Assembly (NCBI GenBank): GCA_040954595.2
Contig: CM082577.2
Location: forward strand, 13,275,903-13,339,902
Length of the DNA stretch: 64,000 nucleotides
Direction of reading: 5' to 3'
DNA from: Balanoglossus misakiensis
Lineage: Eukaryota; Animalia; Hemichordata
Below are positions 20,597 to 37,060 of this stretch, piece after piece. The notes under the pieces were generated by a model. The model had not been told where the DNA came from and made no database searches. It worked only from the letters and a program-made list of their open reading frames with translations. Both the position numbers and the translations under genes were made by a program. The stretch's first letter is position 1, and each line of letters starts with the position of its first letter.

Positions 20597-20724
20597 TCAC
20601 TGTGGAGGTCGGGGTCCACAGTCATCACAGTCGGTTCCATAATCGCAGAGGCTGTATTGCGAATTGGGTCCACCGTCATCGCATTCTCCATCTCCTTTGA
20701 ATTGACAGGTATTCTCACACAATT
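20597..20724 (-). CDS. Terminal exon: 6-Cys acidic module [37 protein letters not shown]
   Basis: Polypyrimidine tract plus TAG acceptor at 20727-20725. Phase 1 matches the preceding exon; ends in TGA. Confidence 0.88.
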
Positions 20725-23700
20725 CTAAAAAAAAGACCAGAAATTGGTATTTTTCATTGAGTATGTATGTATGTATGTATGTATGTATGTATGTATGTAT
20801 GTATGTATGTATCTCAAAATGTTTCTCTGCTCTGAAAAACAATAAAATGCATTGCTGTAGAAAAAACCTTACTCACGTCTGTAGTCAATGCATTCAGAGC
20901 ATGTGCAATGATCTGCAGTATTACCACACCAATGTAGATAAGAACAGCATGGACTGTCACTATCAGGGTCACACTGTGCTGGACTGCCATCGGGAAGGGG
21001 ATAGTCTGGTCCACATCTGCGATCGTCTCGCCATTTTGCTGGATTGAAAGGAAAATGTCACACTTTAGATGTACGTTCGTATGTAAGTACATGCACATAT
21101 ACTATGAATTTGTATGTGTTCATAAAATAGTTACTTCTCGGTCGAACACATTTGTTTAACGTTAATCACCGGTTCCTCACGGGAAATCGTTGTAATTAAA
21201 TAGTACAATAATTATGACTGGGTTCAAATAAAAATGACACACTAGATGTATTTTGGTTAGTAAGACTAATCTTAAGCAATTATTTTCATGTTTTGCTCAA
21301 CTATCTATCAGTCTTTCTGATATCAGTTTGTCTCTACGTCTATCCATCTTTATCTCTCTACTTATCTCTCTACTTATCTATCTATCTATCTATCTATCTA
21401 TCTATCTATCTATCTATCTATCTATCTATCTATCGCGAATTGATGGTACATGTATAAGCTTCTGAGAATGTTCCAAATATAATTCCCACAGAGCTATCTC
21501 AAAATTATCCTCTCCTATTAAAAACAATAAAATGCATTGCTGTAGAAAAAACCTTACTCACGTCTGTAGTCAATGCATTCAGAGCATGTGCAATGATCTG
21601 CAGTATTACCACAATAATGTAGATAAGAACAGCATGGACTGTCACTATCAGGGTCACACTGTGCTGGACTGCCATCGGGAAGGGGATAGTCTGGTCCACA
21701 TCTGCGATCGTCTCGCCATTTTACTGGATTTAAAGGAAAATGTCACACTTTTGATGTACGTTCGTATATAAGTACATGTACAGGTACTATGAGTTCACAA
21801 AATAGTTACTTCTCGGTCGAACACATATGTTTAATGCAAAACACCGGTTCCTTTCACTTGAAATCGTTGTAGTTAAATAGTACAACCATTACGACTGGAT
21901 TCCAATAAAAATGACACACTAGATGTATTTTTGGTTAGTAAGACTAATCTTAAGCAATTATTTTCATGTTTTGCTCATCTATCTATCAGTCTTTCTGATA
22001 TCAGTTTGTCTCTATGTCTATCTATCTATCTCTCTACTTATCTATCTATCTATCTATCTATCTATATATCTATCTGTCTGTCTGTCTGTCTGTCTATCTA
22101 TCTATCTATCTATCTATCTATCTATCTATCTATCTATCTATCTATCTATCTATCTATCTATCTAACGCGAATTGATGGTACATGTATACGATTCTGAGAA
22201 TGTTCCAAATATAATTCCCACAGAGCTATCTCAAAATTATCCTCTCCTATTAAAAACAATAAAATGCATTGCTATAGAAAAAAAACCTTACTCACGTCTG
22301 TAGTCAATGCATTCAGAGCATGTGCAATGATCTGCAGTATTACCACACCAATGTAGATAAGAACAGCATGGACTGTCACTATCAGGGTCACACTGTGCTG
22401 GACTGCCATCAGAAAGGGGATAGTCTGGTCCACATCTGCGATCGTCTCGCCATTTTACTGGATTTAAAGGAAAATGTCACACTTGATGTACGTTCGTATA
22501 TAAGTACATGTACAGGTACTATGAGTTCACAAAATAGTTACTTCTCGGTCGAACACATATGTTTAATGCAAAACACCGGTTCCTTTCACTTGAAATCGTT
22601 GTAGTTAAATAGTACAACCATTACGACTGGATTCCAATAAAAATGACACACTAGATGTATTTTTGGTTAGTAAGACTAATCTTAAGCAATTATTTTCATG
22701 TTTTGCTCATCTATCTATCAGTCTTTCTGATATCAGTTTGTCTCTATGTCTATCTATCTATCTCTCTACTTATCTATCTATCTATCTATCTATCTATCTA
22801 TATATCTATCTGTCTGTCTGTCTGTCTATCTATCTATCTATCTATCTATCTATCTATCTATCTATCTATCTATCTATCTATCTATCTATCTATCTATCTA
22901 TCTATCTATCTATCTATCTAACGCGAATTGATGGTACATGTATACGATTCTGAGAATGTTCCAAATATAATTCCCACAGAGCTATCTCAAAATTATCCTC
23001 TCCTATTAAAAACAATAAAATGCATTGCTATAGAAAAAAAACCTTACTCACGTCTGTAGTCAATGCATTCAGGGCATGTGCAATGATCTGCAGTATTACC
23101 ACACCAATGTAGATAAGAACAGCATGGACTGTCACTATCAGGGTCACACTGTGCTGGACTGCCATCAGAAAGGGGATAGTCTGGTCCACATCTGCGATCG
23201 TCTCGCCATTTTGCTGGATTGAAAGGAAAATGTCACACTTTAGATGTACGTTCGTATGTGAGTACATGTACATGTACTATGAGTTCACAAAATAGTTACT
23301 TCTCGGTCGAACACATATGTTTAATGCAAAACACCGGTTCCTTTCACTTGAAATCGTTGTAGTTAAATAGTACAACCATTACGACTGGATTCCAATAAAA
23401 ATGACACACTAGATGTATTTTTGGTTAGTAAGACTAATCTTAAGCAATTATTTTCATGTTTTGCTCATCTATCTATCAGTCTTTCTGATATCAGTTTGTC
23501 TCTATGTCTATCTATCTATCTCTCTACTTATCTATCTATCTATCTATCTATCTATCTATATATCTATCTGTCTGTCTGTCTGTCTGTCTGTCTGTCTGTC
23601 TGTCTATCTATCTATCTATCTATCTATCTATCTATCTATCTATCTATCTATCTATCTATCTACATGTATCTGTCTATCTACATGTATCTATCTATCTATC

Positions 23701-35700: not shown

Positions 35701-37060
35701 TTTTATTAGTGAATCATTAATTATAGAAAACCATAGCCAAAATATAATGTCTACATTTGGATAAAATGGTTATTTTACTAAATGAATCTGTAATACTCAA
35801 ATGAAATAATAACAGGTGTCATAAACCCTTTCATTATGGTCAACGATGCGTCGTCGGGGGCTGTAAAAACACTATCCGTAGTGGGTTTAGTGTACATAGA
35901 TTTCCGAAAAGCACAGGCTGCGTCACCAGAAAGTCATTAGAAGGTTAGCATAACTGAACAATCACGATTCCGTATATAGATCGTAGCCTATAGATTCCCG
36001 TCGGCTGTGCTCCACTCTGTATCGTGTTCGTACGCTGTTGTTATTGATCATTGAACTACATACAAGGATAACCCTACTACATTACGAAATAAGTACCCTC
36101 TTGAAAAAAAACGAGAAATCCGAGTGCGTGACCTTTCACAGACTTTTGTTTTGTAACAGCTACACCTGTACACAAAAATTCTCAGAGGCAGACGCCATGT
36201 TCTCAGAACTGGCGCGTGGCGCCACCGTCCCTGTGTGGCACTGACCACGGGAAGTTAATTTGCAGTGGCAATACTCAATTTCAATTTGTTTTGGAGCTCA
36301 GGCAGATCAAAATTCCGGCAACGAGTATTAACTTTGTGTACATCTCAAACAAAACGCCCCAAAGGTCACTACATCGCCGTAAAGGTAATGATGAATGGAA
36401 CTGGACCGGTGTTATGCCAGCAATGATGTTTTAAGCGTTAATACTAAAAAAGGCATACAGAAGACAAATTTTTGTACGGACCGTGTCGACATGGTGTGGT
36501 GCCGCGCACCGGGTTCTTTGTGTATATATCGGTGACCAGACGAGCGCAGACCTCCGTATCGGGAGGCAGATCTGCTACGAGAATTTGTGAATTTCACTGA
36601 ACCACTCCTTGAACATTTTATTGCACACATTTATTGTTAAAAAATACAAAAAGTGGCAGCTCTACTGAGGCTTTAAACAAATAGAATGTTATTTACCCAA
36701 TAATCTAATACGGGCATTGCGTCTCGCATTAAGATTTTAATAAGACTGCAGTATTTTCACATGAAGATCATGACTCCTTATATAGTTTCTATATATTAGA
36801 ATATGCATGTGTTCACCGCAACGCCGACTTACCCTCAGTTTTACGATGTACTCCTCTTCTATCTTCTCATCTCCAGCGTGAATCAGTGGCGCTTGATGCT
36901 CACGTTTGACGAAGCTCGGGCGCAGTGCACGGATTCTTCGCTCTTCCTCAATCTTCCTCTTATTTTTGCTGACTGCCGTGGTCTTCACCACAAGTAGTGC
37001 AAATATGATGAACCAAATCGCCGTGGATCGCGATGTGATCATGATCGTCTGAAATGTCAT
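20597..37060 (-). CDS. Secreted proteinase K-type subtilisin (S8A): signal peptide, I9 prodomain, catalytic domain, 10 hevein-like Cys domains and a C-terminal Cys-rich module; 19 coding exons, ~1008 aa
   Basis: Exons 37060-36833 (signal), 34496-34347 (I9), 34117-33988 (WGLDRIDQ), 33720-33608 (VLDTG, catalytic Asp), 33098-32957 (HGTHCAG, His), 32784-32600 (AAGND), 32277-32106 ([11 protein letters not shown], Ser), 31637-31479 (VAALLL...TPNKLL), ten 162-nt exons between 30767 and 20877, and 20724-20597 (stop). All junctions are GT-AG and in phase; total 3027 nt. Confidence 0.93.
25985..29124 (+). mobile_element. 5'-truncated CR1/L2-group LINE (APE endonuclease + RT), antisense within a subtilisin intron
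   Basis: Endonuclease motifs WNIQHL, LSETFL, IYRPP, LGDFN, LLDHIY, SDHYPV. RT motifs [29 protein letters not shown]. One frameshift near 26375; AATAAA plus (TAA)n tail; ATCTATCA on both flanks. Confidence 0.95.
26470..28941 (+). CDS. LINE ORF2 (C-terminal part of the endonuclease plus reverse transcriptase), 823 aa open
   Basis: ORF track. Continues the endonuclease frame 25985-26380 after a small frameshifting insertion (gtagtgtaattggt). Confidence 0.9.
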   Translation: MIVLGDFNFNLLSPNGRNSYLYKCMESMNFSQLVTTVTRPISGTLLDHIYVNSPSNISRTCIPKVGLSDHYPVCVIRRYHANNCNTGSHIYVTSRHFRNFHANSFIDDLNSAFESYCHTDDVNTAFMDWATSFNDICNTHAPRVVRRVKRLRQPPWFSSEILELIHVRDFHLDKAVRSNSHDDWSMYRTLRNKVVHFITTEKRRYYRSIFSANSSNPTVVWRTVHDILSNDNACSQSPRITSNNRTLSNHKDIADAFNDYFTSIVVEYRQSLPGHSDLAITKTWVNSQMSPNLPSFQLPQIPFNFVMEQLASLDATKSHGFDNVSPKLLKIGANSIAGHITNMFNLSITNGTFPDCFKCARVVPIHKNGPKHVISNYRPISILPALSKILERHVYNSLYPYLQNNKLIMSSQSGFRRFHSCNTALLKLTDQLLRNIDNGLYNGLMYLDLCKAFDLVDHDILLRKLSIYGVNDVSLKWFRSYLSNRCQFVSYMGEESKTLPVVCGVPQGSILGPLLFLIFINDLPLSLSMGNIDMFADDQTFCVSGISINEVGTKLQEDVLPISTWVSNNAMSINTTKTKWMIVASRPKVNNVSEHSVTPNIRINNTCISCVSSHTLLGIEIDNALTWDTHIDNLSRKLSMRIGVLRKLRPLTPRHTLMLVYNAIFLSIIDYCCTVWGNTSKNNLQRIYKLQKRAGRVILGVDITFPSRSLLTTLHWLPIDIRIEYFIAVQTFKILHGLAPDYLNEFSYVSEMYNFTTRSVSNANLYVPTFKTATGQRSFMYRATNIWNNIPLSIRSIYSLSQFKSQLRNFFHTKFINEGSSLD
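30216..30345. repeat. (TCAA)n microsatellite followed by (TATC)n
   Basis: Seen directly. Confidence 0.97.
30871..30900 (-). pseudogene. Truncated 11th hevein-like exon (5' stub)
   Basis: TAG acceptor followed by GC GGT AAA TGG CGA GAT GAT CGC AGA (GKWRDDRR); similarity then stops abruptly. Confidence 0.75.
34166..34298. repeat. (TACA)n/(GACA)n microsatellite in a subtilisin intron
   Basis: Seen directly. Confidence 0.97.
34652..35373 (+). mobile_element. Crypton-like non-autonomous element: long hairpin plus an arm bounded by inverted repeats (orientation 1)
   Basis: ~120-bp imperfect hairpin (34661-34779) with a CC-GCA-GG apex. The arm is bounded by TTATCACATGCCT (34784-34796) and AGGCATATGATAA (35361-35373) and is homologous to 53622-55325. 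The class call rests on architecture alone. Confidence 0.65.
35559..36672. mobile_element. Possible Kolobok-like non-autonomous element
   Basis: TTAA on both sides, AG...CT termini and weak TIRs (AGGCTGCAGCTTGCC vs AGCCTCAGTAGAGCTGCC). Confidence 0.35.

What the first reader, a model, noticed from the sequence alone, without database searches (positions are those of the whole stretch)
20597..37060. Secreted subtilisin fused to ten hevein-like domains: a candidate chitin-targeted protease with adjustable avidity
Seen: an intact D-H-S triad, signal peptide and I9 prodomain spliced in frame to ten 54-codon modules with 8 conserved Cys and the CCSxxxWCGxTxxHC core. The ORF track misses this frame. 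Known: that core is the signature of chitin-binding type-1 (hevein/CBM18) domains, best studied in plants and fungi. Inference: the enzyme docks multivalently on chitin or GlcNAc surfaces (fungal walls, prey cuticle, mucus) for digestion or defence. I do not recall this architecture being characterised, but could not search.
Basis: partly seen in the sequence, partly recalled or inferred. Interest (0 to 1): 0.8.

Follow-up and report, generated by a model that had tools for sequence, protein, structure and literature searches.

The report
Acorn-worm protease with ten hevein-type grips
A gene, likely from an acorn worm, is predicted to splice a secreted proteinase-K-type protease to ten near-identical hevein-fold modules, which likely tether the enzyme to chitin or bacterial wall sugars by many weak contacts, although each module lacks one of the two tryptophans that its closest studied relative uses for binding.

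Summary
In detail: 19 GT-AG exons on the minus strand (37060-20597) join into a 1008-aa frame without stops. It reads signal-like stretch, I9-type prodomain, S8 catalytic domain (D181/H214/S366), ten 162-nt phase-1/1 exons with 8 Cys each, and a 41-aa Cys module. The protease sits in a hemichordate clade, 73% identical to Ptychodera flava. The repeat's closest studied relative is not a plant lectin but the chitin-binding domain of amphioxus PGRP3 (4Z8I; Z 9.6, 1.3 A). Three of its four binding-site residues are kept; Trp53 is Leu in all ten copies, so chitin binding is plausible but unproven. The ten copies are young (0-6 nt differences) and more conserved than their introns (p about 0.002), which fits translation. 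P. flava relatives have no repeat. A Glandiceps talaboti model has one decayed copy at the same place. No RNA run was listed, so splicing and 'adjustable avidity' are untested. Chitin-targeted proteases are known; I found no paper on this S8 + hevein-type arrangement, and the scan's notes held no earlier record of it. Verdict: new variant of a known kind, interest 0.42.

The parts
36833..37060 (-). Exon 1: start codon, predicted signal peptide (hydrophobic residues about 14-29), start of I9-type prodomain
   Evidence: hydropathy; 70% identity to P0048 52-94
34347..34496 (-). Exon 2: prodomain
   Evidence: tblastn with P0048 66%; I9 on P0048 89-162
33988..34117 (-). Exon 3: end of prodomain, predicted maturation site, start of catalytic domain
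33608..33720 (-). Exon 4: catalytic Asp181
32957..33098 (-). Exon 5: catalytic His214
   Evidence: PF00082 E 4e-8
32600..32784 (-). Exon 6: oxyanion Asn301
   Evidence: PF00082 E 2e-6; 80% identity to P. flava P0048
32106..32277 (-). Exon 7: catalytic Ser366
   Evidence: PF00082 E 6e-11
31479..31637 (-). Exon 8: end of S8 domain, phase-1 donor, almost no linker
30606..30767 (-). Hevein-fold module 1 (162 nt, phase 1/1, 8 Cys)
29942..30103 (-). Hevein-fold module 2
29402..29563 (-). Hevein-fold module 3
25985..29124 (+). 5'-truncated LINE (endonuclease + RT) inserted antisense in the intron between modules 3 and 4, with an 8-bp target-site duplication; passenger, not part of the protein
   Evidence: RVT_1 E 9e-31 on 26353-28938; boundaries read
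25266..25427 (-). Hevein-fold module 4
24684..24845 (-). Hevein-fold module 5
23862..24023 (-). Hevein-fold module 6
23052..23213 (-). Hevein-fold module 7
22296..22457 (-). Hevein-fold module 8
21562..21723 (-). Hevein-fold module 9 (Tyr in place of the core Trp, by two adjacent base changes)
20877..21038 (-). Hevein-fold module 10
20597..20724 (-). Last exon: 41-aa six-Cys acidic module (DG.CDD type) and stop; shared with five hemichordate S8 relatives; no Pfam or PDB match
20395..20519 (-). Two AATAAA polyadenylation-signal candidates (at 20519 and 20400)

Best explanation
The gene is predicted to make a secreted proteinase-K/aqualysin-type protease whose ten hevein-fold modules likely hold it on dense N-acetylglucosamine surfaces (chitin-protein debris, fungal walls, peptidoglycan) that the worm swallows or traps in mucus, so that it would cut the proteins there. 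Shown in the DNA: the open, phase-matched exon chain, the intact catalytic residues, the ten-fold tandem exon array and its conservation over flanking introns. Shown by comparison: the module's fold and three of four binding-site residues match amphioxus PGRP3's chitin-binding domain. Inferred: secretion; self-removal of the prodomain (family knowledge, recalled); weak binding per module because the Trp53 site is Leu; avidity from ten copies making up for it and favouring polymeric over soluble sugar; action in gut or mucus. The array arose by tandem duplication of one symmetric-phase exon with its flanking intron, probably from a one-module ancestor like the G. talaboti model.
For: Gene model without stops, all GT-AG. 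S8 domain 72-73% identical to P. flava proteins, in a 100/100 clade with hemichordate sequences only; best solved relative of P0048 is aqualysin-1. Module: best PDB sequence hit BbtPGRP3 CBD, E 1.7e-15; model pLDDT 93.5, Z 9.6, rmsd 1.3 A over 53 residues to 4Z8I, and the other 7 of 8 rows with Z>=2 are plant hevein-type chains. BbtPGRP3's domain binds chitin beads and raises its partner enzyme's activity about five-fold on S. aureus peptidoglycan (PMC4610682). Copies 2-9: 9 of 162 exon sites vary against 31 of 195 intron sites (p 0.002); non-synonymous 6 of about 130 against intron, p 0.0013; synonymous 3 of about 32 not different from intron, p 0.43; no indel in any exon copy, several in the introns. 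The only change at the core Trp keeps an aromatic residue. G. talaboti XP_077987934.1 joins S8, one such module and the same terminal module, ending in the same six residues. An engineered proteinase-K-type protease with a chitin-binding tail gained about 29% binding and 35% activity on cuticle (bioRxiv 10.64898/2026.07.24.740453, abstract).
Against: Trp53 of BbtPGRP3 is Leu in all ten copies (alignment). The W53A/W55A double mutant does not bind chitin and single mutants were not reported in the parts read; loss of any one aromatic lowers binding in Ac-AMP2 (PMC10136942 passage). PF00187 is below its cut-off. Only 108 of 556 scored family modules have a full hevein site, and the module also occurs on GPCRs, LDLa, kringle and MACPF proteins, so its general ligand may not be chitin. 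The G. talaboti module has lost the Ser, Trp and His. The direct synonymous/non-synonymous contrast is not significant (p 0.38), the copies are not independent, and gene conversion could add to exon uniformity. Tissue and expression are unknown.
Confidence: 0.45

Rival explanations
1. The fusion is expressed, but the modules bind something other than GlcNAc polymers (a protein or another glycan), or act as a rigid protease-resistant stalk.
For: Leu at the Trp53 site; the commonest pattern among scored modules (188 of 556) has no aromatic there; the module is a promiscuous extracellular unit on receptors and lectins.
Against: Ser, Trp and His of the site are kept, His in 73% and Ser in 73% of family modules; the one tested family member binds chitin (PMC4610682).
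Confidence: 0.2
2. The modules bind chitin, but the worm's own: the protease is anchored on a chitinous gut membrane to avoid wash-out and to guard the epithelium, as VCBP-C and insect peritrophic-matrix proteins are anchored.
For: Chitinous gut membranes are shown in tunicate, lancelet, hagfish and fish, with a CBD protein bound to them; insect matrix proteins carry multiple CBDs (PMC6109156, passages and section 10).
Against: Hemichordates are not mentioned in that paper or in PMC3942024 (term counts 0); no genome was held in which to look for a chitin synthase.
Confidence: 0.15
3. The chain is a precursor: the protease clips off its own tail and releases a ten-valent lectin/agglutinin that works apart from the enzyme.
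For: Aqualysin-type enzymes are known to remove C-terminal extensions (recalled, not checked here); tandem hevein lectins exist in plants (pokeweed lectins and WGA among the fold hits).
Against: There is almost no linker between the catalytic domain and module 1, unlike the Pro-rich linkers of P0048 and P0055; modules are compact and disulphide-rich.
Confidence: 0.1
4. The repeat exons are mostly skipped or are a neutral tandem expansion driven by the microsatellite-rich introns, and the working product is the P. flava-type protease plus terminal module.
For: Symmetric phases allow skipping without a frameshift; P. flava relatives lack the module; the copies are young and each unit holds a microsatellite.
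Against: All ten copies keep frame, eight Cys and both splice sites; non-synonymous sites are depressed relative to introns while synonymous sites are not; a G. talaboti model includes such an exon.
Confidence: 0.1

Closest known systems
Amphioxus BbtPGRP3 (PDB 4Z8I; PMC4610682)
   Same: Same 53-residue four-disulphide hevein-like domain (53% identity, Z 9.6), fused to a secreted hydrolase; Ser51, Trp55 and His62 kept.
   Different: One N-terminal copy on an amidase there, ten C-terminal copies on a serine protease here; Trp53 is Leu here.
Hemichordate 'extracellular serine proteinase-like' models: P. flava XP_070543375.1 (P0048), XP_070543162.1 (P0055); G. talaboti XP_077987934.1 (P0305)
   Same: Signal + I9 + S8 + terminal Cys module; P0305 also has one hevein-type module between S8 and the terminal module.
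   Different: P. flava proteins have no hevein module (1-2 terminal modules, or none); the G. talaboti module has lost the binding residues; none has an array. All are uncharacterised database models.
Chitin-binding proteases AprIV (Alteromonas), Sp22D (Anopheles), Streptomyces griseus protease C, and engineered Pr1A/CDEP-1-CBD fusions (seen as an abstract and passages of bioRxiv 10.64898/2026.07.24.740453; original papers not read)
   Same: A protease joined to chitin-binding modules to raise its concentration on chitin-protein substrate. An S8 + CBM5/12 (PF02839) protein, P0385, also appears.
   Different: As I recall, these use CBM5/12 or CBM14 modules in low copy number and, for Sp22D and protease C, a trypsin-family catalytic domain; none uses a hevein fold in ten copies.
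Aqualysin-1 / proteinase K subgroup of S8A (PDB 4DZT, 1IC6)
   Same: I9 prodomain, D-H-S triad with oxyanion Asn; aqualysin-1 is the best solved match of the P. flava relative (E 7e-87).
   Different: Animal gene with 18 introns and a 580-residue Cys-rich tail.
Plant tandem hevein lectins (WGA, pokeweed lectins C and D2, UDA)
   Same: Same core fold (Z 4.5-5.2) and tandem arrangement.
   Different: No catalytic partner; they lack the WRxDxRCG N-terminal extension; three aromatic residues in the site.

Membership tests
Peptidase S8A, proteinase K/aqualysin subgroup | Asp-His-Ser triad in subtilase motifs with oxyanion Asn | tested here: met
   D181, H214, S366, N301; PF00082 above cut-off on exons 5, 6 and 7
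Peptidase S8A, proteinase K/aqualysin subgroup | I9 prodomain before the catalytic domain | tested here: met
   Met through relatives: PF05922 above cut-off in P0048, P0055, P0299, P0305 (4 of 5 scanned), which align without gaps to this region for P0048 and P0055; no hit on window exons 1 and 2 scanned singly
Peptidase S8A, proteinase K/aqualysin subgroup | Signal peptide for secretion | tested here: inconclusive
   The six most hydrophobic 11-residue windows all lie at residues 13-28; no dedicated predictor available
Peptidase S8A, proteinase K/aqualysin subgroup | Proteolytic activity | not testable with these tools
   needs an assay
Hevein-like / chitin-binding type 1 (CBM18) domain | Hevein fold with four-disulphide core | tested here: met
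   Z 9.6, rmsd 1.3 A, 53 aligned to 4Z8I; plant hevein chains Z 2.4-5.2; the eight Cys align with those of 4Z8I
Hevein-like / chitin-binding type 1 (CBM18) domain | Pfam PF00187 at gathering score | tested here: not met
   17.9 and 16.8 bits against 27.8 for single modules 1 and 9; the ten-module chain was not scanned as a whole
Hevein-like / chitin-binding type 1 (CBM18) domain | Binding site Ser + three aromatics (hevein S19/W21/W23/Y30; BbtPGRP3 S51/W53/W55/H62) | tested here: not met
   Ser, Trp (Tyr in copy 9) and His present; first aromatic is Leu in 10 of 10 copies; a recalled PROSITE-type pattern gives 0 hits
Hevein-like / chitin-binding type 1 (CBM18) domain | Binds chitin or GlcNAc oligomers | not testable with these tools
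   needs pull-down or calorimetry
Amphioxus PGRP3-type animal hevein-like module | N-terminal WRxDxRCG extension plus 8-Cys spacing over about 53 residues | tested here: met
   E 1.7e-15 to 4Z8I over 52 of 53 residues; W 93%, R 95%, D 96% conserved in 588 modules
LNR/Notch repeat (considered for the last exon) | Pfam PF00066 or LNR fold | tested here: inconclusive
   no Pfam or PDB sequence hit; Atlas lead 0.83 to a cluster with 40% PF00066; model unusable, pLDDT 51

The most novel reading that the evidence does not exclude
An animal avidity-gated protease: a hevein-fold module with a weakened site was amplified ten-fold so that the enzyme acts only on dense GlcNAc polymers, and cassette splicing of the symmetric exons yields a series from zero to ten grips that tunes targeting. 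Copy numbers of 0, 1 (decayed) and 10 across three acorn worms would make a natural experiment in how valency evolves.
Probability: 0.12. Interest if true: 0.7.

Novelty: new variant of a known kind. Interest (0 to 1): 0.42.

Why it matters
If right, it adds an animal S8 protease with a hevein-fold targeting array to the short list of chitin-directed proteases. It suggests how deposit-feeding acorn worms, in a group reported to have contracted its classical digestive protease genes (PMC11470021 passage), may digest or disarm chitin- or peptidoglycan-bearing material. It also gives a clean test case for a widespread animal module (954 cluster representatives at E<=0.001) of which I found only one member studied, and whose commonest binding-site pattern, the one seen here, I found no assay for.

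Tried and rejected
Expression: no RNA holder was listed for 30480-34150, which is no evidence either way; no reads were laid. No whole genome is held, so paralogues, the source of the module and chitin synthases could not be checked. Same architecture elsewhere: 0 of 177 module-bearing proteins (32 plus 145 new among the best 150 of 954) carry an S8 domain; 1 of 237 S8 proteins (the best 120 of 1047 and the best 120 of 7980, the latter limited to 298-951 aa) carries the module. These are partial lists, so other S8 + module proteins may exist. Pfam scan of 56 of the 145 new module proteins showed no S8 among the families listed (top five per protein). Orthology: trees do not resolve whether the window gene groups with G. 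talaboti (p-AU 0.054) or with P. flava a/b (p-AU 0.24), so single origin of the fusion is not shown; the G. talaboti module's best match among 568 domain rows is the window's repeat (39.7 against 35.5 bits), a weak hint because the set was gathered with that repeat. Last module: no Pfam, PDB or confident model; no fold search run on it. Assembly artefact: rejected as the main reading because the units differ in SNPs, indels and microsatellite lengths and one intron carries a LINE with a target-site duplication. Literature: searches listed no paper on a natural S8 + hevein-type fusion in animals (0 papers hold both 'chitin-binding type-1' and 'peptidase S8'); most were judged from listings only, and subscription journals are not covered. 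Passages of PMC9848320, PMC11661445 and PMC3942024 held nothing on this gene. The scan's notes gave no match by sequence or by words.
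Full report
The observation. I rebuilt the gene from the minus strand. Nineteen exons from 37060 to 20597 all have AG acceptors and GT donors, and their phases match at every junction. The joined 3027 nt translate to 1008 residues and a TGA with no internal stop. The catalytic residues D181, H214 and S366 and the oxyanion N301 are intact, and exons 5, 6 and 7 each hit Pfam Peptidase_S8 above its cut-off. Exon 8 (31637-31479) ends in phase 1. Ten 162-nt phase-1/1 exons follow, each with eight Cys, then a last exon with a 41-residue six-Cys module. 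The Cys core occurs ten times in the window and never in 50 shuffles.

The protease. The S8 part is 72-73% identical to two Ptychodera flava models and 53% to a Glandiceps talaboti model. It falls in a 100/100 clade of nine rows that holds only the window and hemichordate sequences, so the genome is likely an acorn worm's; earlier notes of the scan say the same. The best solved relative of the P. flava protein is aqualysin-1, followed by other proteinase-K-type enzymes. The I9 prodomain is split over exons 1-3 and was not hit on exons 1 and 2 scanned singly, but it scores above cut-off in 4 of 5 hemichordate relatives. The signal peptide rests on hydropathy alone.

The repeat. Pfam sees it only weakly (PF00187, 17.9 bits against 27.8). 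Its best match among solved structures is the N-terminal domain of amphioxus PGRP3 (4Z8I, E 1.7e-15), far above plant heveins (E 0.6-6). A model built on 18 sequences (pLDDT 93.5) aligns to 4Z8I at Z 9.6 and 1.3 A over all 53 residues, and the other seven rows with Z of 2 or more are plant hevein-type chains. 4Z8I dates from 2015, so the predictor may have seen it, but the 53% identity carries the match. In that paper (PMC4610682; I read parts 1-3 of 5) the domain binds chitin beads, the site is Ser51/Trp53/Trp55/His62, the W53A/W55A double mutant does not bind, and the domain raises the amidase activity about five-fold on S. aureus peptidoglycan. The window's module keeps Ser, the second Trp and His, but has Leu at the Trp53 site in all ten copies. 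In the plant peptide Ac-AMP2, loss of any one aromatic lowers binding (PMC10136942, passage). This pattern is not peculiar to the gene: of 556 family modules with all four positions filled, 108 have a full site and 188 have the window's pattern (these are not independent). The module is promiscuous and is found with astacin, MACPF, PGRP amidase, C-type lectin, kringle, LDLa, GPCR, SRCR, Kunitz and multicopper oxidase domains. Chitin binding is therefore likely but not shown.

Age and constraint of the array. The exon copies differ by 0-6 of 162 nt, and the duplicated unit includes the flanking intron and a microsatellite. A 3.1-kb LINE with an 8-bp target-site duplication sits between copies 3 and 4. 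Among copies 2-9, 9 of 162 exon sites vary against 31 of 195 intron sites (Fisher p 0.002; splice sites and microsatellite left out). Non-synonymous sites are depressed relative to introns (6 of about 130, p 0.0013), and synonymous sites are not (3 of about 32, p 0.43). The direct synonymous/non-synonymous contrast is not significant (p 0.38). No exon copy has an indel, while the introns have several. The copies share history and may undergo gene conversion, so these p-values are indicative, but the pattern fits selection on a translated product. No RNA run was listed, so splicing itself is untested.

The architecture elsewhere. None of 177 module-bearing proteins carries an S8 domain. One of 237 S8 proteins carries the module: G. 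talaboti XP_077987934.1 has S8, one module and the same terminal module, and ends in the same six residues as the window's protein. Its module is 50% identical to the window's but has lost the Ser, Trp and His, and Pfam misses it. Four P. flava relatives have the terminal module and none has the hevein-type one. The simplest reading is a one-exon fusion older than this species, decayed in one lineage and amplified here. The trees cannot confirm it (p-AU 0.054 and 0.24 for the two groupings), and an independent insertion into the same phase-1 intron remains possible. Both protein sets are the top parts of longer hit lists.

How it likely works. The protein would be secreted and shed its prodomain (family knowledge, recalled), leaving about 94 kDa. 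The ten modules would bind GlcNAc polymers weakly one by one and firmly together, keeping the protease on chitin-protein debris, fungal walls or peptidoglycan in the gut or mucus (0.45). Rivals: another ligand or a stalk role (0.2); anchoring on the worm's own chitinous gut membrane, as shown for chordates (PMC6109156, passages and section 10; hemichordates not mentioned) (0.15); release of the tail as a free lectin (0.1); skipped or neutral exons (0.1). Symmetric phases permit any number of modules to be spliced in, but nothing here shows that this happens.

Against what is known. Proteases with chitin-binding tails are known in bacteria and insects (AprIV, Sp22D, S. griseus protease C), and engineered proteinase-K-type fusions gain about 30% in binding and activity. 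I saw these in the abstract and passages of bioRxiv 10.64898/2026.07.24.740453 and did not read the original papers; their module types are recalled. An S8 + CBM5/12 protein also appears. The working principle is thus known, and the module is known from one amphioxus protein. The combination of an S8 with a hevein-fold array was not found in the searches, which were judged mostly from listings and do not cover subscription journals or supplements. It is a member of S8A. The repeat has the hevein fold and belongs to the PGRP3-type animal subfamily, but it fails the canonical hevein binding-site test, so I do not file it as a standard CBM18.

Verdict. The gene is real and well supported at the DNA level, and it is a new variant of a known kind. 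Exon shuffling and tandem amplification of extracellular modules are common in these animals, which limits the surprise; the weakened site with ten-fold valency and the 0/1/10 series across acorn worms make it a testable case. Interest 0.42.

Noticed in passing
window 25985-29124 (+): 5'-truncated LINE with endonuclease and RT, an 862-codon open stretch (26353-28938) preceded by a 154-codon stretch in another frame, a simple-repeat 3' tail and an 8-bp target-site duplication; lies antisense inside the repeat array.
   Followed up: partly
window 20597-20724 (-); P0048, P0055, P0299, P0302, P0305: A 41-residue six-Cys acidic module (DG.CDD...C..G.DC.DCG.R) ends this family of hemichordate proteases in one or two copies; no Pfam or PDB match, only a weak LNR/Notch lead. 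It may be an unnamed calcium-binding module.
   Followed up: partly
window about 30870-30900 (-): A short remnant resembling the start of the repeat exon lies about 127 nt upstream of module 1, possibly a relic of an earlier duplication.
   Followed up: no
window 924-2295 (-): Two stretches hit Peptidase_M17 (leucyl aminopeptidase): exons of a neighbouring gene on the same strand.
   Followed up: no
window 12448-12984 (-): Fragment hitting 7tm_1 (E 6e-12), seemingly a broken rhodopsin-family GPCR.
   Followed up: no
window 48281-51451 and 52219-55388: A 3.2-kb direct duplication at 99.2% identity, each copy with a 145-bp tandem repeat.
   Followed up: no
window 60473-63999 (+): Long open stretches (651 and 155 codons, the latter ending in a Cys-rich motif) without Pfam hits; they look like a DNA-transposon gene (impression from recall, not tested).
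   Followed up: no
P0016, P0174, P0193: Astacin metalloproteases fused to two to four copies of the same hevein-type module (P0016 from P. flava): a second protease class with this tail.
   Followed up: partly
window 15200-17300 and 57500-58100: Related 150-178-bp tandem repeats occur at both places, probably a dispersed satellite or miniature element.
   Followed up: no
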